A stretch of 40,625 nucleotides of DNA, taken from IMG/VR virus record IMGVR_UViG_2541047915_000011; one strand, 5' to 3'. How positions within the stretch are numbered: the first letter of the stretch is position 1; every line of letters begins with the position of its first letter. The translations under genes and the position numbers were made by a program. The notes beneath the pieces are model-generated. The model ran no database searches. It was not told the DNA's origin and saw only the letters and a list, made by a program, of their open reading frames with translations. Positions 26,944 to 35,287 of the stretch are shown piece by piece. The DNA is from a virus (lineage: Duplodnaviria > Heunggongvirae > Uroviricota > Caudoviricetes).

Positions 26944-28716
26944 ATGACCATCACCACAGACACCACTCTTTTACACGACCCGCGTCGTCAGGCGGCACTG
27001 CTGTACTGGCAGGGGTTTTCCGTGCCGCAGATTGCCGCCATGTTGCAGATGAAACGCCCGACGGTGCAGAGCTGGAAACAGCGCGACGGCTGGGACAGCG
27101 TTGCCCCCATCAGCCGTGTCGAAATGAGCCTGGAAGCGCGGCTGACCCAGCTCATCATCAAACCGCAGAAAACCGGCGGTGACTTCAAGGAAATTGACCT
27201 GCTGGGACGCCAGATTGAACGACTGGCACGGGTAAATCGCTACAGCCAGACCGGCAACGAGGCAGACCTTAATCCGAACGTCGCTAACCGCAACAAAGGC
27301 GGGCGGCGCAAACCGAAAAAGAATTTTTTCAGTGACGAAGCCATCGAAAAGCTGGAGCAGATTTTCTTTGAGCAGTCTTTCGACTATCAGTTGCACTGGT
27401 ATCGCGCCGGGCTTGAGCACCGCATCCGCGATATCCTGAAATCCCGCCAGATTGGCGCGACATTTTATTTTTCCCGCGAGGCGCTGCTGCGCGCCCTGAA
27501 AACCGGTCATAACCAGATTTTTCTGTCGGCCAGTAAAACGCAGGCGTATGTGTTCCGCGAATACATCATCGCCTTTGCCCGGCTGGTTGACGTTGACCTG
27601 ACCGGTGACCCAATTGTCCTCGGCAATAACGGCGCAAAACTGATTTTTCTCGGCACCAACTCCAACACCGCGCAGAGCCATAACGGCGACCTGTACGTCG
27701 ACGAGATTTTCTGGATCCCGAATTTTCAGGTGCTCCGTAAGGTGGCATCAGGTATGGCCTCACAGAGTCACCTGCGCTCGACCTATTTCTCCACCCCGTC
27801 CACGCTGGCGCACGACGCCTACCCGTTCTGGTCCGGTGAACTGTTTAACCGGGGACGCGCCAGCGCCGCCGAACGCGTGGAAATCGACGTCAGTCATAAC
27901 GCCCTTGCCGGTGGGCTTCTCTGTGCGGACGGCCAGTGGCGGCAGATTGTCACCATTGAGGACGCCCTGAAAGGCGGCTGCACATTGTTCGACATTGAGC
28001 AGCTTAAACGCGAAAACAGCGCCGACGATTTTAAAAACCTGTTCATGTGTGAATTTGTTGACGACAAGGCGTCGGTGTTCCCGTTCGAGGAGCTGCAACG
28101 CTGCATGGTCGACACGCTGGAAGAATGGGAAGACTATGCGCCGTTTGCCGCGAATCCGTTCGGCTCCCGCCCGGTATGGATTGGTTACGACCCGTCACAC
28201 CGTGGCGACAGTGCCGGATGCGTGGTGCTGGCACCGCCGGTGGTGGCCGGTGGCAAATTCAGAATACTTGAGCGTCACCAGTGGAAAGGCATGGACTTTG
28301 CCATTCAGGCTGAATCCATCCGCAAACTCACCGAAAAATACAACGTCGAATACATCGGTATTGATGCCACCGGCCTCGGTGTCGGCGTGTTCCAGCTCGT
28401 GCGCTCGTTCTATCCCGCCGCGCGCGATATCCGCTACACACCGGAAATGAAAACCGCAATGGTGCTCAAGGCAAAAGACGTTATCCGCCGTGGCTGTCTG
28501 GAATATGACGTCAGCGCCACCGACATCACCAGCTCGTTTATGGCTATCCGCAAGACCATGACCAGCAGCGGACGCAGCGCCACCTATGAGGCCAGCCGCA
28601 GCGAGGAAGCCAGCCACGCCGACCTCGCCTGGGCGACCATGCACGCCCTGTTAAATGAGCCACTCACCGCCGGTATCAGCACCCCGCTGACATCCACCAT
28701 TCTGGAGTTTTACTGA
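26944..28716 (+). CDS. P: Terminase ATPase (large) subunit gpP (590 aa)
   Basis: MTITTDTTLLHDPRRQAALLYWQGF... from the ATG at 26944, preceded by a GAGGT Shine-Dalgarno. P2 P size. Confidence 0.9.
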   Translation: MTITTDTTLLHDPRRQAALLYWQGFSVPQIAAMLQMKRPTVQSWKQRDGWDSVAPISRVEMSLEARLTQLIIKPQKTGGDFKEIDLLGRQIERLARVNRYSQTGNEADLNPNVANRNKGGRRKPKKNFFSDEAIEKLEQIFFEQSFDYQLHWYRAGLEHRIRDILKSRQIGATFYFSREALLRALKTGHNQIFLSASKTQAYVFREYIIAFARLVDVDLTGDPIVLGNNGAKLIFLGTNSNTAQSHNGDLYVDEIFWIPNFQVLRKVASGMASQSHLRSTYFSTPSTLAHDAYPFWSGELFNRGRASAAERVEIDVSHNALAGGLLCADGQWRQIVTIEDALKGGCTLFDIEQLKRENSADDFKNLFMCEFVDDKASVFPFEELQRCMVDTLEEWEDYAPFAANPFGSRPVWIGYDPSHRGDSAGCVVLAPPVVAGGKFRILERHQWKGMDFAIQAESIRKLTEKYNVEYIGIDATGLGVGVFQLVRSFYPAARDIRYTPEMKTAMVLKAKDVIRRGCLEYDVSATDITSSFMAIRKTMTSSGRSATYEASRSEEASHADLAWATMHALLNEPLTAGISTPLTSTILEFY

Positions 28717-29735
28717 TGAGTAAGAAAAAAGGGAAAACACCGCAACCTGCGGCAAAAAAAATGACCGCCAGCGCCCCGAAAATGGAGGCATTCACCTTTG
28801 GTGAGCCGGTGCCGGTACTCGACCGCCGTGACATTCTGGATTACGTCGAGTGCATCAGTAACGGCAGATGGTATGAGCCGCCGGTCAGCTTTACCGGTCT
28901 GGCGAAAAGCCTGCGTGCTGCCGTGCATCACAGCTCGCCGATTTACGTCAAACGCAATATTCTGGCCTCGACATTTATCCCGCATCCGTGGCTTTCCCAG
29001 CAGGATTTCAGCCGCTTTGTGCTGGATTTTCTGGTGTTCGGTAATGCGTTTCTGGAAAAGCGTTACAGCACCACCGGTAAGGTCATCAGACTGGAAACCT
29101 CACCGGCAAAATATACCCGCCGTGGCGTGGAGGAGGATGTTTACTGGTGGGTGCCGTCCTTCAACGAGCCGACAGCCTTCGCGCCCGGCTCCGTGTTTCA
29201 CCTGCTGGAGCCGGATATCAATCAGGAGCTGTACGGCCTGCCGGAATATCTCAGCGCCCTTAACTCTGCCTGGCTGAATGAGTCGGCCACGCTGTTCCGC
29301 CGCAAGTATTACGAAAACGGCGCTCATGCCGGATACATCATGTATGTCACCGATGCCGTGCAGGATCGCAACGATATCGAAATGCTTCGCGAAAACATGG
29401 TTAAGTCGAAAGGCCGCAACAACTTTAAAAACCTGTTTCTCTATGCCCCACAGGGGAAAGCCGACGGCATTAAAATTATCCCCCTCAGTGAAGTGGCGAC
29501 GAAGGACGATTTTTTTAATATCAAAAAAGTCAGCGCCGCAGATCTCCTGGACGCACACCGCATCCCCTTTCAGTTGATGGGCGGTAAGCCGGAGAATGTC
29601 GGGTCACTAGGAGATATTGAAAAAGTGGCAAAGGTCTTTGTCCGCAATGAACTCATTCCATTACAGGAGAGAATAAAGTCAATAAATGAATGGTTAGATA
29701 TGGAAGTCATAAAATTCCTTGATTATAACTTATAA
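28716..29735 (+). CDS. Q: Portal protein gpQ
   Basis: 339 aa, start overlaps the P stop. P2 Q position, on the opposite strand to the capsid genes. Confidence 0.9.
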   Translation: MSKKKGKTPQPAAKKMTASAPKMEAFTFGEPVPVLDRRDILDYVECISNGRWYEPPVSFTGLAKSLRAAVHHSSPIYVKRNILASTFIPHPWLSQQDFSRFVLDFLVFGNAFLEKRYSTTGKVIRLETSPAKYTRRGVEEDVYWWVPSFNEPTAFAPGSVFHLLEPDINQELYGLPEYLSALNSAWLNESATLFRRKYYENGAHAGYIMYVTDAVQDRNDIEMLRENMVKSKGRNNFKNLFLYAPQGKADGIKIIPLSEVATKDDFFNIKKVSAADLLDAHRIPFQLMGGKPENVGSLGDIEKVAKVFVRNELIPLQERIKSINEWLDMEVIKFLDYNL

Positions 29736-29746
29736 GTAAATATATA

Positions 29747-29775
29747 AAGTTGGCGGAATGCAATCCCGCCAACTT
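29747..29775. terminator. Stem-loop between convergent Q and the 2-TM gene (possible bidirectional terminator)
   Basis: Perfect 10-bp stem AAGTTGGCGG / CCGCCAACTT with 9-nt loop. Flanking U-tracts are weak on both strands. Confidence 0.45.
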
Positions 29776-29867
29776 AACTATATATACTTCCTTTTTACTC
29801 TACTTAATTCTATCACTGATGAGGAGTGACAAAATGACAAATTAATAGTATCGATATAATCCAAAAT

Positions 29868-30485
29868 TTAACTCTCAACCTCAATAAAAATATTTTTGGG
29901 CCCATTACTAATCGATATACCGATTTCATCCAAAACAGCCATCATTTTTCTCTGATGAGTTTTATATTTATAGTCTTTATTTTCCTCTGTAATATGTGCA
30001 TTGGCTTCCTCAATAACACATTTGATTCTAGATATTATTTCTAGATAATCTCTCGAAACAGATATATCACCGCCTTGCGCTTCAGGGAACATAACCCTAT
30101 ACCATCTAAAAAAATTAACTTTCTCTGGATAGATGCTACTTCTTTTAGTTAACTCAGCACTTGCAAATTCTCTAAACATCGTCAGATGACTAGTGTAATT
30201 ACTATTATTATTATTTTTAACTCCAGCGTTATATGTCATCAAAGCAATCATAACACCAAAAACGGTAACAAAAGTTGTTATAAGCCATCCAAACGCCTGA
30301 AAATACATTACTATACCAGATGTTTTTTCCGCAAAAAATTTTAAGCACTGGCTATCGAAGCATATATCACGCTCATATAGCTTTTCATTCTGAATAGTTT
30401 CAAAAAGAGAAATTAGCGAAAAAATCAAAAAAAGAGCTGACGACACACCGACAATATATTTGAGAAGTCTAATATTTGCATTCAT
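29868..30485 (-). CDS. Small 2-TM membrane protein (205 aa), candidate effector partner of the adjacent reverse transcriptase
   Basis: ATG at 30483-30485 overlaps the RT stop (ATGA overlap). Hydrophobic helices at about residues 10-28 and 58-84. Strongly AT-rich. Confidence 0.7.
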   Translation of the reverse strand: MNANIRLLKYIVGVSSALFLIFSLISLFETIQNEKLYERDICFDSQCLKFFAEKTSGIVMYFQAFGWLITTFVTVFGVMIALMTYNAGVKNNNNSNYTSHLTMFREFASAELTKRSSIYPEKVNFFRWYRVMFPEAQGGDISVSRDYLEIISRIKCVIEEANAHITEENKDYKYKTHQRKMMAVLDEIGISISNGPKNIFIEVES

Positions 30486-31672
30486 AATGGTTTTAAAGAT
30501 GCCAATCTAGATTTAAAACACTCCAGTTTTTCTTTAAATGATTCAGAGCGAGTAAGAATAATCATCTTATATCTCGTCAAATCATATTTTCTTTTATACC
30601 AATGTTTATTTTGATTACCTTTCGAATACGACAACTCTAAACTTTTTATAGCTGCATCAATCACAGCAACATCTCTTTTAGATGGCATCGGTTTTATTGC
30701 CTGCAACTGTTTCTTGAATGATTCATATTTTTCATGCCCAACACGGCCAAGCTTATTCACTCTCCCCATACATCTATTGAATTCTTTTCTGTATGCAACA
30801 CTTGTTTTTGTGTTATTTTTTGCCGCCAGTAATTTCAAATTATGTATAGATGCCCTGATTCTTTTGACTTCATCGGATGGTAGTCGAGGTGAGTCATAGT
30901 CAACTCTTAAACCATGTACTTTTATAGGTTCAGATGAACAGTGAAATATTTTAGTTTTGTGCTTATTTATCGGCAAGTCATGCTCAGAAAGCATCCTCTC
31001 TATATGGCTTTGCATTTGAGAAAAATCATAATTACTTATTTTAGATGACACGGTAATATCATCTACCAAACGCGTATAAACAAGTCCTTTCCTCTGCGCA
31101 CGTCTTACCACATCCCCTTCAACAGCGAATAAACACAAAGTTGCTATATAGCTTGATGTTAAGGCCCCCTGTACGACAAAATCATCCTTAGTACATATAT
31201 CCACCAAGTATTCAAGAGCCTCATCCTTAATATGCAATATCTCCTCAAACACGCTCCTAACCAGATCTCTATGGATATTATCGAAAAAATTACTTATATC
31301 CACCTTGAGAACTGTTTTTGCTCCACAATGAGCCTTTGCACATGAAACATAGTCACGTTTGACATTAGAATTTAACACATCATTTTTACTGGGAACTGAA
31401 CCAAACAAAAATGAAGGAAAAACAACCAATTCCTTAAAGATACGTTTATTAATTCTACTCTGTAATAATCTCATTTTAGGATGCAGGGAGTAGACAATCC
31501 GTTTGCTTCCGTCAATTTTGGGAATTTCTTTTAGAGTATATTTCTCATCTAATGGTAATTCTGCAATAGCTTTAAGCTCTTCAACAGAAATCGATAAAGC
31601 CTTTGACAACTTTTCAAGTGTTGTGATAGGAGCATTGGATTTGCTGTATGGTTTAAATTTATCCATAAACAT
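30482..31672 (-). CDS. Reverse transcriptase, retron-like (UG/Abi-type not excluded). About 396 aa from the ATG at 31672; the ORF track extends to a TTG at 31756.
   Basis: RT motifs in order: IPKIDGSKRIV, CAKAH, VLKVDISNFFDNI, QGALTSSYIATL, LVYTRLVDDITV (catalytic DD), INKHKTKIF, IKVHGLRV, then a basic C-terminal domain of about 135 aa. Start is ambiguous; the upstream extension overlaps a structured inverted-repeat region. Confidence 0.8.
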   Translation of the reverse strand: MFMDKFKPYSKSNAPITTLEKLSKALSISVEELKAIAELPLDEKYTLKEIPKIDGSKRIVYSLHPKMRLLQSRINKRIFKELVVFPSFLFGSVPSKNDVLNSNVKRDYVSCAKAHCGAKTVLKVDISNFFDNIHRDLVRSVFEEILHIKDEALEYLVDICTKDDFVVQGALTSSYIATLCLFAVEGDVVRRAQRKGLVYTRLVDDITVSSKISNYDFSQMQSHIERMLSEHDLPINKHKTKIFHCSSEPIKVHGLRVDYDSPRLPSDEVKRIRASIHNLKLLAAKNNTKTSVAYRKEFNRCMGRVNKLGRVGHEKYESFKKQLQAIKPMPSKRDVAVIDAAIKSLELSYSKGNQNKHWYKRKYDLTRYKMIILTRSESFKEKLECFKSRLASLKPL

Positions 31673-31689
31673 ACCATTCAAATTCAAAG

Positions 31690-31820
31690 TTACGTACGGT
31701 CTTCCCATACTCAAGGGTGGAACAGCAGAGATGCTTACATCAACAATTGTCAGCAACAGCCTCTGCTATCTTTCGACCGTACGTAATGTCGTCGGCTACG
31801 GCACCATCGTAGTTGACGAC
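31690..31820 (-). repeat. Nested inverted repeats and hairpins in the RT leader (candidate structured RNA element)
   Basis: 12-bp perfect inverted repeat TTACGTACGGTC (31690-31701 and 31775-31786) enclosing a 7-bp inner repeat AGCAGAG/CTCTGCT. Adjacent hairpin at 31788-31820 with 13-bp imperfect stem GTCGTCGGCTACG / CGTAGTTGACGAC. Confidence 0.5.
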
Positions 31821-31997
31821 GGTGGGGCCTCGCTGATAGGTCCATAGTGGACGCTTTTTTGTAAAAGCAAAAACTGACAATTTAATGTTGTTGACTGCCG
31901 CATACCAAGCGAATCGCTGGTGCGCTAAGAATAATGCAACAAAAAAATAAGAATTTCAACCGGGTAACTGCAAGCCAGCGACATCGTTTAGCGCGCA

Positions 31998-32016
31998 GTG
32001 CTTTCCCCGCCTCGCC
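31998..32016. other. cos cohesive-end sequence (P2 type)
   Basis: Minus strand reads GGCGAGGCGGGGAAAGCAC, matching the 19-nt P2 cohesive end as I recall it. Lies between the RT and gene A. Confidence 0.7.
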
Positions 32017-32588
32017 CGCCCGCTTCATGTGGCGGTTTTAATGCAGTTGCATAGATACTATGGATCCGCACCAGCTCTGACCGCAAGCAGCTGGAACGGG
32101 CATCCCCGACGCATGCAAAAACATTCACTTGTTGCATGCACGGCTTATTTAATGACAAATCAACTTAAGCGTCACCGAAGCTCCCACAAAAAAAACGTAA
32201 CGCCATGATTTTAGTGATATTTATGACTTTTTTAATTGCTTATTTAAGTCCGCCATATTGAAACCGTGCATTTTTTAGCCACCAATAACTTTAAAAAATT
32301 TACATTGCTTTCAATACCTTATCATCCGTAGTCCCTGCTTTTTACTTTGAGCTATATCAAAAAAAGCTCAAACATCCTTGATGCAAAACCAGTATTACAC
32401 AACATAAAATGCAACCAGAAACAACGACATACTATATGTTGTGTTGTTCAGGCTCTCTGTTCGGTGATATGCCAGATCACTTTGCGTTTAAACAGAGCAT
32501 TATTTCAGGGCAAGACTTCGCTAAATAGTAACTCCGCCTTAGAAGCGCATATATCGGCGGAAATTGCCCTCTGCTTACAGGAGGAGAT

Positions 32589-32699
32589 ATGAAGAAGTGC
32601 TATTACTGCATTCTCGTTCTGGCCCTCTTTGGCTATCCATATGGTAGTCCAAGTGGTTTGTCAGTAAACGTCAGTAATATCCATGTAAGTATTATTCTT
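32589..32699 (+). CDS. Possible small hydrophobic protein (36 aa, MKKCYYCILVLALFGYPYGSPSGLSVNVSNIHVSIIL)
   Basis: AGGAGG Shine-Dalgarno at 32579-32584, ATG at 32589, stop TAG directly before the bidirectional terminator. Below the ORF-track size cut-off. Expression unverified. Confidence 0.3.
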
Positions 32700-32713
32700 T
32701 AGTATGCTTCAAA

Positions 32714-32745
32714 CAAAAAAACCACCTGCCAGGGTGGTTTTTTTG
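32714..32745. terminator. Bidirectional intrinsic terminator (ends the A operon on the minus strand and the small ORF on the plus strand)
   Basis: A7 tract, AACCACC / GGTGGTT stem with TGCCAG loop, then T7 tract. Confidence 0.6.
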
Positions 32746-33004
32746 CGCCTGTCATCATTCCGATGAAAGACTAGCAAGACTTCGCTCGAGATGAATTATG
32801 CTTCGACAAAAGGTCACTCGCAATGGTTTTATTAGCCGAAATAGATGCTCTTTTATGACTCGAATCAAATAGCTGCCTTAAATTACATGCTAGCGATTCA
32901 ATACAATTTAGCCTTCTACTTCAGCATGCTATTGCTCCTCATCTGCCTTAGAGGCGCTTCGCATAATCCATTCAAAGGCATATAAAATCACGCTGCATTT
33001 TTAC

Positions 33005-35287
33005 TCAAATGGGTAACAAAAATCCAGGCCACTCATCAGCGACCTGATAATTGAAAGATTTCCCGTAATAATTTACGGTCGCGCCACGCGCCAGCGCCTC
33101 AAGCTCCCATCGCTGCGGCCTGATACCGTTCTGAGCAAGGTCAACGCGGATACGGGTAATTTGCATTCTTTCCGACCGGGTCAGTCTGGCCGATGGTGCA
33201 ATTTCATGTGGTTTTAACGGGCTTCCGTTTCTTTGCTGACGATTTGGTGTTCTCAGGTCGTGTTTTAATGCCCCCCTGAGCGCCCTCACGACCTCCGTGT
33301 CATTCCATTCGATAACACCGTCATCAACCAGATTAAGCACTGCTGCGGCGTGTTCAGAAGGTGTGGGAGCCGGTAACGAAGTATCACCACCGGTGAGCTT
33401 TCCACAGTTATTGACAGGACTCCGAGGCGCGGCGATGCCGCTTTTTAAAGTCAAAGGCTCAACGACCGGAACTTTCGGCACAATGCGCCAGTCCGTCGTT
33501 CTGGTGATATGAATATGACGCGCGCCGAGATGCGGCGCGTAAATGCCGACCACTCTCTCGACTTCTTCCTCGTACTCGTTAACGTCATCCGACGGGCTAC
33601 GGGCGACCCTGACAGTCTGACAATCGCGCGGGACATTTGCCCCGCCCTGCGCGCTGATATACAACGCAAAATCACCACTGTCTGCAGCGGCGCGTGCAGC
33701 CTCGACGCGCTCGTCAAACTCATCAGCAATGCTGACGCCGCGAGGCAATTTGCGTAGTTCACGGTAAGCCCCCATTGTCGGCAGACCAACCGTTTTAAAT
33801 TGCGGAATGCGCCACGTTGACGCCCATGCGGTAACAGCCGCTGCAGTATCTTTCAGCGGCCTGCCGGTATCGTTATCGAGCTGACCATCCAGTGCATAGC
33901 CGTCGATGTTTTTTGAAATGTATTTCGCGATATACCCCGCAGCACCGCCCCGGTTAAGATGTTTTGCCTGAAAACGGTTTCGCGCAGCTCCTCTTTCGTC
34001 GCCATCCTCTTTGAGCGCGTAGCGACGCATGATTTCAATAATCTGGTTACGCTGGCGTGGATTACAAAAAAGCATCATATGCCAGTGCGGCGTTCCGTCG
34101 TGGTGTGGCTCGACGACTCGCAAACCGTAGACCTGTAAATCATTATCCTTGAATGCCGTGCGCATCAGGCTCCAGATACGGCAGAGATATCGCTGCGCAT
34201 CCTTTGGATTAAATGCCTCATCATTCCAGCCGTGATTAAGCTGGACGGTTTTACTTTCGCCTTTTCCGACCTGACGTGTCGGGTGATACTTTGACGGCGC
34301 GGTCAGCGTGATAAACATCCCCACATCGCCCTCTGCGGCGGCGTAACGCTCAATACCGGCAATGGTGTTCATCAGCTCCATCCGGCGAATTTCAGGATTA
34401 GAAATACTGCCCATAACCTTACTGATAAGGTCGATGCGCTCGCCGGTTTCCCTGTTTTCAAGGTCACACGATTTAAGAAATTCCAGATTTGCCTGGCGGC
34501 GCGCACGCACATCACGAATGGCATGTTTACTGGCATAAGGAGAACGGTCTTTATTCACCTCCCCGACAGCAATCAGTAACGCCTCATGCCAGCGCATACG
34601 CTGGCCTTTAAGCTGACTAATCCACCACTCATCGTTAAACAGGCGGGCAATGGCAGAATATGCCTGCCTCGTGGTCATCTGTCCTTTACGGTATTTTTTC
34701 CAGAAAAGCGGGGAAATATTGAAAGCACGTGCAGCGCCAGCAACATGACCATACAGATGCGCCTGCGCCTCATCTGTAAACAGCGATTCTTTCTCGCCAT
34801 GTGCATCAACCCAGGCATCGCAGAGTTCCTCATACATCATGAAAAGCTGCGATGAAATACGGGCGGCAAACTTTTTCAGCTCCTTGTCATTCATCCCCGG
34901 CAGACGCGCATAATGGTCACGCTCTGCCAGAAACAGCAACGACGCGTCGGTGTTCATTTCATGGCGCTGATTCACGCGCTCAATACGCGGCCATAAACGG
35001 CGCTGAAAAGTGGATGTGAGGAAATAAAACCCGTGTAGCGGGCTTTTATTGCGCCGTATGTAGTCATAACGTGAAGTAAACAGCGAGCGCAAAAAGTAAG
35101 GCAGGCGGTTAATCGTGGATAAAACACCTTGCACCTGACGCATCTCGTCACGTGTAAGGGGTCTTTCGCGCCCGACAGCCTCGCGTGGCGTATTCCATGC
35201 ATAAGCACCGGTAAACGCCTTACCGGTGCCTGCGGCAAACGCAGACGGAGGTACGCAGGTGTATTGCTCCTGGAAAGAATGACTCAT
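33005..35287 (-). CDS. A: Replication initiation protein gpA (rolling-circle initiator)
   Basis: 760 aa, P2 A size and position. Start overlaps the stop of the upstream PP-loop gene. Confidence 0.9.
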   Translation of the reverse strand: MSHSFQEQYTCVPPSAFAAGTGKAFTGAYAWNTPREAVGRERPLTRDEMRQVQGVLSTINRLPYFLRSLFTSRYDYIRRNKSPLHGFYFLTSTFQRRLWPRIERVNQRHEMNTDASLLFLAERDHYARLPGMNDKELKKFAARISSQLFMMYEELCDAWVDAHGEKESLFTDEAQAHLYGHVAGAARAFNISPLFWKKYRKGQMTTRQAYSAIARLFNDEWWISQLKGQRMRWHEALLIAVGEVNKDRSPYASKHAIRDVRARRQANLEFLKSCDLENRETGERIDLISKVMGSISNPEIRRMELMNTIAGIERYAAAEGDVGMFITLTAPSKYHPTRQVGKGESKTVQLNHGWNDEAFNPKDAQRYLCRIWSLMRTAFKDNDLQVYGLRVVEPHHDGTPHWHMMLFCNPRQRNQIIEIMRRYALKEDGDERGAARNRFQAKHLNRGGAAGYIAKYISKNIDGYALDGQLDNDTGRPLKDTAAAVTAWASTWRIPQFKTVGLPTMGAYRELRKLPRGVSIADEFDERVEAARAAADSGDFALYISAQGGANVPRDCQTVRVARSPSDDVNEYEEEVERVVGIYAPHLGARHIHITRTTDWRIVPKVPVVEPLTLKSGIAAPRSPVNNCGKLTGGDTSLPAPTPSEHAAAVLNLVDDGVIEWNDTEVVRALRGALKHDLRTPNRQQRNGSPLKPHEIAPSARLTRSERMQITRIRVDLAQNGIRPQRWELEALARGATVNYYGKSFNYQVADEWPGFLLPI

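What the first reader, a model, noticed from the sequence alone, without database searches (positions are those of the whole stretch)
31673..31997. Highly structured leader between cos and the RT start: candidate RT-associated non-coding RNA
The roughly 320 bp between cos and the first in-frame ATG of the RT contain a 12-bp perfect inverted repeat (TTACGTACGGTC, arms at 31690-31701 and 31775-31786) that encloses a 7-bp inner inverted repeat (AGCAGAG/CTCTGCT). Together these could fold into a long imperfect hairpin of about 100 nt. A second hairpin with a 13-bp stem lies at 31788-31820, and further small stems follow toward cos. The upstream TTG/ATG extensions of the RT ORF fall inside this structure, so I favour the ATG at 31672 as the start. 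Long stable stem-loops directly upstream of a retron-type RT are what an msr-msd template RNA looks like. The alternative is that they are cos-proximal packaging or terminase-recognition sequences. I could find only weak candidate a1/a2 flanking repeats.
Basis: partly seen in the sequence, partly recalled or inferred. Interest (0 to 1): 0.6.

Follow-up and report, generated by a model that had tools for sequence, protein, structure and literature searches.

The report
Retron Ec48 template RNA gene
The structured stretch between the phage cos site and the reverse transcriptase is the template-RNA (msr-msd) gene of the well-studied E. coli retron Ec48 (Retron-Eco6), an anti-phage defence system carried by a P2-like prophage.

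Summary
The downstream genes are a type IV retron reverse transcriptase (PADLOC RT_IV, E 6e-177) and the Ec48-family two-transmembrane effector. The published Retron-Eco6 (Ec48) ncRNA aligns to the window's minus strand at 31945-31760. The first 48 nt of the published reverse-transcribed DNA equal the plus strand 31779-31826 exactly. The roughly 100-nt "long hairpin" (31688-31788) is not msDNA. It is an RNA-level 3' domain conserved in 27 other type IV retron loci, with abundant compensatory changes. A covariance model built without the window finds it once (E 8e-18). P2-like phages lacking the RT share only the cos core (from about 31990), which rules out a packaging role. The RT start is at 31672 or 31666, not at the upstream extensions. 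The branching G and the a1/a2-versus-hairpin topology stay unresolved. The verdict is: already known, correctly rediscovered. In this copy the effector carries a premature stop.

The parts
31998..32016 (.). P2-type cos cohesive-end sequence (GGCGAGGCGGGGAAAGCAC on the minus strand). This is the backbone boundary of the cargo and not part of the retron.
   Evidence: There is a single exact match in the window, with 0 expected by chance. Linear P2-like phage records begin or end exactly at the position that aligns with window 31998 (H28, H34, H35). That this sequence is the P2 cohesive end comes from my own knowledge.
31931..31959 (-). Predicted sigma-70 promoter TTGAAA-17-CATTAT of the retron operon. 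The implied transcription start is about 31923-31925.
   Evidence: It is the only promoter-like site found in 31600-32100. Nucleotide conservation with relatives begins right after it. Relatives carry -10-like hexamers at the same offset (sequences listed). The start site itself is inferred, not measured.
31900..31923 (-). SL0, the conserved 5' stem-loop of the ncRNA.
   Evidence: Cells are 95.7% paired across 28 loci, and 4 pairs show changes on both sides.
31874..31898 (-). a1, the 5' strand of helix P1. It consists of an outer segment UCAAC (31890-31894), an inner segment AUUGUCAG (31874-31881) and a conserved GC (31897-31898). G31874 at its inner end is my candidate for the branching G.
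   Evidence: The window repeats are I6 and I16. The outer helix is 93.6% paired, and 5 of 5 pairs change on both sides. The duplex is present in all 28 loci, at -13 to -28 kcal/mol, with mean z = -3.5 against shuffles.
31840..31868 (-). msr stem-loops: SL1 (31853-31868, GCUUUU/AAAAGC) and SL2 (31840-31852, GUCCA/UGGAC).
   Evidence: They are 99.2% and 97.1% paired across 28 loci, each with 4 pairs changed on both sides. Both fold better as RNA than as the complement in 25 of 28 loci.
31779..31826 (-). msd, the template of msDNA-Ec48. The DNA product is the plus strand 31779-31826, and its hairpin stem is 31788-31800 / 31808-31820.
   Evidence: The first 48 nt of the published, sequenced Retron-Eco6 RT-DNA match exactly. 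As DNA it forms a continuous 13-bp hairpin at -11.1 kcal/mol, z = -2.66. This segment folds better as the cDNA strand in 23 of 28 loci.
31688..31788 (-). It comprises closing stem C (31775-31786 / 31690-31701), stem I (31760-31770 / 31721-31731) and small hairpin S (31704-31717, with the invariant loop motif UAUG).
   Evidence: A covariance model built from 25 other loci hits here once in the window, at 77.1 bits and E 8e-18. Stem C is 93.4% paired, and 11 of 12 pairs change on both sides; hairpin S is 100% paired. The domain folds better as RNA than as the complement in 24 of 28 loci.
31733..31753 (-). a2, the 3' strand of helix P1. It lies inside the apical loop of stem I, so it crosses the long hairpin (a pseudoknot or an alternative fold).
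   Evidence: The topology follows directly from the coordinates.
30482..31672 (-). Retron type IV reverse transcriptase (RT-Eco6/Ec48). The start is ATG 31672 (396 aa) or ATG 31666 (394 aa, the RefSeq choice).
   Evidence: PADLOC RT_IV scores E 6e-177 over the full length, and Pfam RVT_1 also matches. Homologues are mostly 394-396 aa. RefSeq calls it as 394 aa. DD lies at residues 204/205, which is 216/217 in the 408-aa numbering of Millman et al..
29868..30485 (-). Ec48-family two-transmembrane effector. It is 205 aa here because of a premature stop; the family norm is 235 aa.
   Evidence: PADLOC 2TM_IV scores E 2e-75. NCBIfam NF038235 retron_Ec48_2TM scores 202 bits against a cut-off of 65. 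The nonsense change is at 29870.

Best explanation
The region is the non-coding RNA gene (msr-msd) of Retron-Eco6 (Ec48). This is a type IV retron carried as cargo in the cos-proximal variable hotspot of a P2-like prophage.

Proposed mechanism, step by step:
1. [quoted passage not shown]
2. The 5' part folds into SL0, the a1 strand and two msr stem-loops (shown by covariation).
3. The RT is translated from ATG 31672 or 31666. It primes from the 2'-OH of a G in the msr and copies the msd (established for this retron in the literature).
4. This gives the 48-nt msDNA-Ec48, which is the plus strand 31779-31826 with its 13-bp DNA hairpin (shown by identity to the published RT-DNA).
5. Host RNase H1 trims the template and sets the 3' end (literature).
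6. The roughly 100 nt between the msd and the RT start form a conserved three-helix RNA domain. Its 5' arm overlaps the first 8 template bases, and its apical loop holds a2 (shown by covariation). I infer that this domain positions the template start and the a1/a2 helix for priming, and that it is remodelled once the template is copied and degraded.
7. The RT-msDNA complex keeps the membrane effector silent. Phage RecBCD inhibitors (lambda Gam, T7 gp5.9) release it, and the infected cell dies (Millman et al. 2020).
For: Protein identity:
- RT_IV scores 6e-177 and 2TM_IV scores 2e-75.
- NF038235 retron_Ec48_2TM scores 202 bits against a cut-off of 65.
- RefSeq names the neighbouring gene 'retron Ec48 family effector' in 57 E. 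coli genomes that carry the full locus.
- The RT has the Ec48 peculiarities described by Simon et al. (PMC6868368). VHG replaces VTG, and the N of NAXXH is substituted (CAKAH); both are visible in the translation.

RNA identity:
- The published Eco6 ncRNA aligns to 31945-31760. The only differences are 3 single-base indels, which look like machine-reading errors in the PDF text.
- The first 48 nt of the published RT-DNA equal 31779-31826 exactly.

Conservation:
- Nucleotide homology runs from about 31925 to about 31680 in Enterobacterales, Pseudomonas, Agarivorans, Marinobacter and Betaproteobacteria.
- The covariation score is 0.446 against 0.215 for shuffles (0 of 500 reach it), and 0.10-0.17 for the slid controls.
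- The covariance model built without the window hits at E 8e-18.

Strand asymmetry separates the DNA-level msd from the RNA-level stems.

It is not cos-related.

Function comes from the literature. Defence and RecBCD guarding are from bioRxiv 10.1101/2020.06.21.156273. The RNase H1 role and the 45-48-nt RT-DNA are from PMC8989520.
Against: - No Rfam family matches the region, even at E up to 10.
- The branching G was not identified. The published boundaries imply G31925 with an a1 at 31926-31945. That a1 overlaps my predicted promoter, and its pairing is weak and not conserved.
- The conserved a2 (31733-31753) lies 25 nt away from the sequenced template start at 31779. This is not the canonical geometry.
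- The full a1/a2 helix and stem I cross each other and probably cannot both be fully formed at once (my inference from loop lengths).
- There are no expression data for this window.
- The effector here is truncated, so this particular copy may not defend.
Confidence: 0.93

Rival explanations
1. The stems are cos-proximal packaging or terminase-recognition sequences of the P2-like phage.
For: They lie within 325 bp of cos.
Against: P2-like phages without this RT share only query positions 2191-2300, which is window 31990-32099. The same RNA elements sit next to the RT in 27 loci from other genera, and none of those loci contains the cos sequence within 1.5 kb. The compensatory changes include frequent G.U pairs on the RT strand, which points to selection on RNA.
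Confidence: 0.01
2. The long hairpin (31688-31788) is only an mRNA leader that controls RT translation or mRNA stability. It plays no part in msDNA synthesis, and the functional ncRNA ends near 31760, as in the published Eco6 annotation.
For: The published ncRNA stops at 31760. The domain directly precedes the RT start. In related type VI retrons, RNA structure next to the msr-msd represses translation until msDNA is made (10.1101/2025.10.22.683967).
Against: The a2 strand of the only family-wide a1/a2 helix lies inside this hairpin. The first 8 template bases are its 5' arm. The likely ribosome-binding region lies outside the stem, as seen in the sequences. The two roles are not exclusive.
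Confidence: 0.15
3. The priming stem is the published one: a1 at 31926-31945 pairs with a2 at 31760-31777, and the branching G is G31925 in UUAGCG. On this reading the conserved P1 helix has some other role.
For: These are the boundaries of the published Eco6 ncRNA. On the a2 side the geometry is canonical: the template start C31779 is followed by G31778 and then a2. The UUAGCG context resembles that of Ec86.
Against: The a1 overlaps the only promoter-like site. The best duplex is -5.8 kcal/mol, worse than the shuffles (z = +1.7). No comparable pairing exists in the 27 relatives. G31925 is not conserved. The a2 bases are instead tied up in covarying stems C and I.
Confidence: 0.2
4. It is the ncRNA of a non-retron defence RT, for example a DRT2-type rolling-circle template or a DRT3/DRT9-type RNA.
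For: It is a structured RNA of about 250 nt directly upstream of an RT of about 400 aa, the layout seen in DRT2 (from my own knowledge).
Against: The RT scores 35 bits against NCBIfam Drt2 (cut-off 390) and 40 bits against Drt3a (cut-off 200). It scores 587 bits against the retron RT_IV model. The measured product is a 45-48-nt msDNA.
Confidence: 0.01

Closest known systems
Retron-Eco6 (Ec48), E. coli. msDNA-Ec48 was described by Mao, Inouye and Inouye in 1997, and its defence role by Millman et al. in 2020.
   Same: This is the same element. The ncRNA and the first 48 nt of the RT-DNA are identical. The RT has the Ec48-specific motif variants, and its DD numbering is consistent with the published D216/D217. 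The effector family is the same.
   Different: The effector in this copy has a nonsense codon at residue 206. My family comparison places the functional RNA at about 31925-31688, whereas the published boundaries are 31945-31760.
Type IV retrons (Mestre et al. 2020, PMC7736814): clade 3 RT plus a two-TM effector, with a 'type IV' structured RNA family.
   Same: The gene order, RT clade and effector agree. The RNA shares all helices with 27 other members.
   Different: Nothing was found to differ. I could not see Mestre's consensus structure, because the supplement is not held. I therefore cannot say whether the a2-in-loop topology is already drawn there. The census ncRNA for an Acinetobacter type IV retron does start at the a1 equivalent and runs through the 3' domain.
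Canonical msr-msd, for example Retron-Eco1 (Ec86).
   Same: The order is promoter, a1, msr stem-loops, msd hairpin, a2, RT. The msd hairpin is selected at the DNA level.
   Different: In Ec86 the template start abuts a2, with two opposed unpaired G residues (and Millman's text). Here a2 is 25 nt from the template start and is buried in the loop of a conserved hairpin. There is also an extra 5' stem-loop (SL0).
Type VI retron hybrid RNA (Retron-Vpa2; bioRxiv 10.1101/2025.10.22.683967).
   Same: It belongs to the same RT clade 3. Structured arms lie between the msr-msd and the distal inverted repeats that resemble a1/a2.
   Different: In type VI the intervening arms encode a small toxic protein, and msDNA is made only on infection. 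Eco6 makes abundant msDNA constitutively, and its intervening RNA is non-coding.
The P2-like prophage hotspot between gpA and gpQ next to cos (Rousset et al. 2022, PMC9122126).
   Same: The retron sits between the portal gene (28716-29735) and cos, in the described hotspot. Retrons are listed among that hotspot's cargo.
   Different: There is none. This only gives the genomic context.

Membership tests
Retron (msr-msd ncRNA + RT) | The RT belongs to the retron clade and is encoded directly downstream of the ncRNA. | tested here: met
   RT_IV scores 6e-177 over the full length, and all other top hits are retron RT models. The ncRNA ends 16 nt before ATG 31672.
Retron (msr-msd ncRNA + RT) | Inverted repeats a1/a2 close the msr-msd. 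| tested here: met
   Helix P1 pairs 31874-31898 with 31733-31753. It is present in 28 of 28 loci. Its outer segment is 93.6% paired, with 5 of 5 pairs changed on both sides, and mean z is -3.5. The position of a2 is atypical: it lies inside a hairpin loop, 25 nt from the template start.
Retron (msr-msd ncRNA + RT) | There are short msr stem-loops that are not reverse transcribed. | tested here: met
   SL1 and SL2 are 97-99% paired and covary. They are favoured on the RNA strand in 25 of 28 loci.
Retron (msr-msd ncRNA + RT) | The msd hairpin is copied into multicopy single-stranded DNA. | tested here: met
   This rests on sequence identity to published experimental data, not on an experiment here. 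The sequenced RT-DNA equals 31779-31826. The segment is favoured on the cDNA strand in 23 of 28 loci.
Retron (msr-msd ncRNA + RT) | A conserved branching G follows a1 immediately, opposed by a second conserved G next to the template start. | tested here: inconclusive
   A G sits at or near the inner end of a1 in every locus (G31874 here). It is base-paired, however, and there is no invariant unpaired G pair. The published G31925 is not conserved. Settling this needs debranching or mutagenesis.
Type IV retron / Retron-Eco6 (Ec48) | A two-transmembrane effector is encoded directly downstream of, or overlapping, the RT. | tested here: met
   2TM_IV scores 2e-75. NF038235 (equivalog) scores 202 bits against a cut-off of 65. 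The effector overlaps the RT stop by 4 nt. It is truncated here at residue 205 of 235.
Type IV retron / Retron-Eco6 (Ec48) | The ncRNA and msDNA sequence match those of Ec48. | tested here: met
   183 of 186 positions match the published ncRNA string, and the differences are single-base indels in machine-read text. The RT-DNA matches at 48 of 48 positions.
Type IV retron / Retron-Eco6 (Ec48) | It gives anti-phage defence triggered by RecBCD inhibitors. | not testable with these tools
   This is known for Ec48 only from the literature. The effector nonsense mutation leaves it open for this copy.
Any Rfam RNA family (release 15) | The region matches a curated covariance model. | tested here: not met
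   Nothing was found inside the structured RNA (31688-31925) at E up to 10. The only hit touching the finding interval is a chance-level mir-9 match at 31629-31693 on the opposite strand.
DRT2-type RT + ncRNA | The RT belongs to the UG2/Drt2 family. | tested here: not met
   NF041746 Drt2 scores 35 bits against a cut-off of 390.

The most novel reading that the evidence does not exclude
The type IV retron ncRNA is not a simple nested msr-msd. It may be a two-state or pseudoknotted RNA, built as follows. The a2 strand is sequestered in the apical loop of a conserved three-helix domain. That domain also contains the first 8 template bases and abuts the RT start. Forming a1/a2 would then require opening stem I. 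Copying and RNase H removal of the template would then destroy the 5' arm of the closing stem. msDNA synthesis would therefore remodel the leader of the RT-effector mRNA, a feedback akin to the one just described for type VI retrons. A corollary is that the published Eco6 ncRNA boundaries are offset: their a1 would lie in the promoter, and about 70 nt of functional 3' RNA would be missing. The true branching G would be G31874.
Probability: 0.2. Interest if true: 0.45.

Novelty: already known. Interest (0 to 1): 0.15.

Why it matters
As a discovery it does not matter much. Retron Ec48 has been known since 1997, its defence role since 2020, and its RT is already used in genome-editing tools.

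The case is still useful in three ways:
- It shows that a blind reading of raw sequence recovered a real retron template RNA.
- It gives a family-wide, covariation-backed map of the Ec48 RNA. The map differs from the boundaries commonly used to engineer this retron, which could bear on its low editing performance (0.2x Eco1 in the census).
- It flags that this particular prophage copy carries a truncated effector.

Tried and rejected
- **Rfam.** A scan of 29500-33200 at E up to 10 gave nothing inside the structured RNA (31688-31925); the one hit touching the interval (mir-9, 31629-31693, opposite strand) is at chance level.
- **Original Ec48 paper.** PMC179752 is not held. The supplements of Simon 2019, Palka 2022, Kong 2021 and Mestre 2020 gave no sequence or structure, being images or not held. 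Only the census supplement did.
- **Published a1/a2.** I tested pairing between the 30 nt upstream of SL0 and the 22 nt after the template start in all 28 loci. There is no signal: z is about 0, and +1.7 in the window.
- **Extra helices.** I looked for helices that could bring a conserved G next to the template start at 31779. An all-against-all column covariation scan found only the helices already listed. Duplex tests of the linker against stem I strands, the linker against arm B, and the segment after a1 against the junction were all weak, with mean z between -0.9 and +0.3.
- **A branching G inside arm B.** G31697 would fit a hairpin-primed geometry. I rejected it because that position is A in Pseudomonas and Agarivorans.
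- **The conserved AUG at 31708 as the RT start.** I rejected it because it is in frame and open in only 3 of 27 relatives.
- **Pairing of GCGGCAGUC (31893-31901) with GGCUGUUGC (31753-31761).** I rejected it because changes in Pseudomonas break the pairs (by inspection).

Full report
**1. The observation**

- the perfect 12-bp inverted repeat, 31690-31701 / 31775-31786;
- the 7-bp inner repeat, 31724-31730 / 31761-31767;
- the 13-bp stem, 31788-31800 / 31808-31820 (85% complementary).

On the RT (minus) strand, 31688-31788 folds as RNA into a three-helix hairpin at -41.8 kcal/mol. Its z-score is -5.35, and 0 of 200 dinucleotide shuffles fold as well. The P2 cohesive-end sequence occurs once, at 31998-32016. 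The 325-nt interval between cos and the ATG at 31672 is therefore as described.

**2. The locus**

The ORF at 30482-31672 (minus strand) matches the PADLOC type IV retron RT model end to end (E 6e-177). The overlapping downstream ORF matches the type IV two-transmembrane effector model (E 2e-75). That ORF also passes the NCBIfam equivalog model 'retron Ec48 family effector membrane protein', at 202 bits against a cut-off of 65.

The RT shows the two motif peculiarities that Simon et al. report for RT-Eco6. VHG replaces VTG, and the asparagine of NAXXH is substituted (sequence). Its catalytic DD lies at 204/205. In the 408-aa reading that starts at ATG 31708 this becomes 216/217, which matches the D216A/D217A mutants of Millman et al..

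The whole 2.3-kb cargo is present at 99.7% identity or more in 57 complete E. coli genomes and in phage pro147. In each it lies between the portal gene and cos. This is the P2-like defence hotspot of Rousset et al..

**3. Identity of the RNA**

The supplement of the retron census (PMC10849725) prints the Retron-Eco6 ncRNA and the RT-DNA recovered by sequencing.

The ncRNA aligns to the window's minus strand at 31945-31760. The only differences are three single-base indels. The same bases are correct in the RT-DNA string, so these look like machine-reading noise.

The first 48 nt of the RT-DNA are identical to the plus strand 31779-31826. Palka et al. measured 45 nt with the same retron and showed that RNase H1 sets the 3' end.

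Its two A.C mismatches in the RNA become G.T pairs in the DNA, which folds into an unbroken 13-bp hairpin at -11.1 kcal/mol, z = -2.66.

**4. The packaging alternative**

P2-like phages without this RT match the query only from window position about 31990 onward. Several linear records begin or end exactly at 31998. None of the 80 loci fetched from other species contains the cos sequence.

**5. Family comparison**

A scan of one genome per species with an RT alignment returned 43 type IV relatives at 35-57% protein identity.

Nucleotide homology to the window's upstream region is detectable in Enterobacterales, Pseudomonas and Agarivorans with the single sequence. With a profile it extends to 27 loci, including Marinobacter, Aeromonas and Betaproteobacteria. 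These matches are nearly always full length, corresponding to about 31925 through about 31680.

On the 28-sequence alignment A3 I counted pairs for a structure that I specified myself.

| Element | Cells paired | Pairs changed on both sides |
|---|---|---|
| SL0 | 95.7% | 4 |
| SL1 | 99.2% | 4 |
| SL2 | 97.1% | 4 |
| Closing stem C (the 12-bp repeat) | 93.4% | 11 of 12 |
| Upper part of stem I | 100% (5 pairs) | 4 of 5 |
| Hairpin S | 100% | 2 of 3 |

The overall covariation score is 0.446. Column shuffles give 0.215 (0 of 500 reach the observed value), and sliding the partners gives 0.10-0.17. RNAalifold had independently predicted the same helices on a smaller alignment.

A covariance model of the 3' domain, built from 25 loci and excluding the window, finds exactly one hit in the 40.6-kb window. 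The hit is at 31688-31788 on the minus strand, at 77.1 bits and E 8e-18.

**6. The missing a1/a2**

Two window repeats, I6 and I16, together form a helix that I call P1. It pairs 31874-31894 with 31740-31753, and it is extended by a conserved GC/GC pairing at 31897-31898 / 31733-31734.

The outer segment of P1 is 93.6% paired, with all five pairs changed on both sides. The inner segment is too variable in spacing for the column alignment. Even so, a duplex of -13 to -28 kcal/mol is found at the same place in all 28 loci, with mean z = -3.5 against shuffles.

P1 has the position expected of a1/a2. Its 5' strand lies just before the msr stem-loops, and its 3' strand lies after the msd.

The census ncRNA for an Acinetobacter type IV retron starts at the equivalent of a1 and shows the same nesting: arm A, then the stem I analogue, then a2, then arm B (my reading of the sequence). 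The family model used in the field therefore probably already contains this helix.

**7. What is unusual**

The a2 strand lies in the apical loop of stem I. P1 therefore crosses stems I and C.

The loop leaves 6 nt on one side of a2 and essentially none on the other. From this I infer that the full P1 and the full stem I cannot coexist. Either stem I opens when a1/a2 forms, or only part of P1 forms.

Nested constrained folds put the two states within about 7 kcal/mol of each other. The stems C + I state is at -83.2 kcal/mol and the P1 state at -76.5 kcal/mol.

The sequenced template start (31779) lies 8 nt inside the 5' arm of stem C and 25 nt from a2. In Ec86, by contrast, the template start abuts a2.

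The strand-asymmetry test supports the division of labour:
- the segment between the conserved CACC and stem C folds better as cDNA in 23 of 28 loci;
- SL0 folds better as RNA in 21 of 28 loci;
- SL1-2 fold better as RNA in 25 of 28 loci;
- the 3' domain folds better as RNA in 24 of 28 loci.

Stems C and I contain many G.U pairs. They are RNA structures, not msDNA structures.

The nearest described analogue is the type VI 'hybrid RNA'. There, structured arms separate the msr-msd from distal a1/a2-like repeats.

**8. Boundaries and branching G**

The published ncRNA begins at 31945, which implies an a1 at 31926-31945 and a branching G at 31925 in UUAGCG. Four results argue against that a1:
- The only promoter-like site in the region is TTGAAA-17-CATTAT at 31959-31931, which would start the RNA at about 31923-31925.
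- Conservation begins exactly there.
- The proposed a1/a2 duplex is -5.8 kcal/mol, worse than shuffles, and has no counterpart in relatives.
- G31925 is not conserved.

A G at or next to the inner end of P1 (G31874 here) is present in every locus, and it is my candidate. It is base-paired, though, and the geometry to position 31779 is unexplained. I leave this as inconclusive.

**9. RT start**

Several results favour a start at 31672 or 31666:
- Homologues are mostly 394-396 aa.
- RefSeq starts the protein at 31666 (394 aa).
- The PADLOC profile begins at residue 8 of the 396-aa form.

The invariant AUG at 31708 sits in the loop of hairpin S. It is in frame and open in only 3 of 27 relatives. 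The 408-aa and 424-aa extensions therefore read through conserved RNA.

**10. Mechanism**

Shown here:
- the identity of the locus;
- the helices;
- the template;
- independence from cos.

Taken from the literature:
- 2'-OH priming and the msDNA product;
- trimming by RNase H1;
- RecBCD guarding and abortive infection through the two-TM effector.

Inferred:
- the promoter and start site;
- P1 as the priming stem, with G31874 as the branch;
- mutual exclusion of P1 and stem I;
- remodelling of the RT leader after the template is degraded.

**11. Verdict**

The novelty class is 'already known' and the interest is low. The only open scientific point is the non-canonical placement of a2 and the offset of the commonly used ncRNA boundaries.

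Noticed in passing
window 29868-29870 (effector gene 29868-30485, minus strand): A single base difference at 29870 turns Gln206 (CAA) into a stop (TAA): the plus strand has A here, against G in E. coli AH21I008 and phage pro147. The effector is therefore 205 aa instead of 235 aa. The truncated form exists in NCBI as WP_021565820.1. This retron copy may be disarmed or attenuated.
   Followed up: yes
window 31666-31756: Three different RT starts are in circulation: 408 aa (ATG 31708, the numbering used by Millman et al.), 396 aa (ATG 31672) and 394 aa (ATG 31666, RefSeq). The AUG at 31708 is invariant in 28 loci, but it lies in the loop of a conserved RNA hairpin. It is in frame and open in only 3 of 27 relatives, so the longer forms probably over-extend into the ncRNA.
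   Followed up: yes
window 31926-31945: The first 20 nt of the published Retron-Eco6 ncRNA (its presumed a1) overlap the -10 hexamer and spacer of the only promoter-like site. They show no conserved pairing with the presumed a2. Constructs built on those boundaries also lack the conserved RNA between 31688 and 31759.
   Followed up: partly
window 31874-31880 (plus strand) compared with the RT-DNA string in the census supplement: The published RT-DNA string differs from the window by a cluster of three changes (CTGACAA becomes GTACAAA), exactly at the candidate branching G31874. Elsewhere the string has only one single-base drop. This could be polymerase error at a 2'-5' branch. It could equally be machine-reading noise in the PDF, and I could not tell which.
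   Followed up: partly
window 31788-31820, and the msd segments of loci L002-L044: The msd hairpins carry A.C mismatches on the RNA strand that become G.T pairs on the cDNA strand. Across 28 loci the msd folds better as cDNA in 23, while all flanking stems fold better as RNA. This gives a simple sequence-only way to delimit the reverse-transcribed part of a retron RNA.
   Followed up: yes
window 32020-33004, and L001 5424-6968: The gpA side of the cos hotspot has no ORF longer than 81 aa in this window and no annotated gene in the identical RefSeq genome. Phage pro147 carries a second, unrelated RT gene there ('Sll1503'-type, 514 aa). A strong bidirectional terminator-like hairpin sits at about 32716-32746 and attracts only sub-threshold Rfam hits (RNAI, Phe leader).
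   Followed up: no
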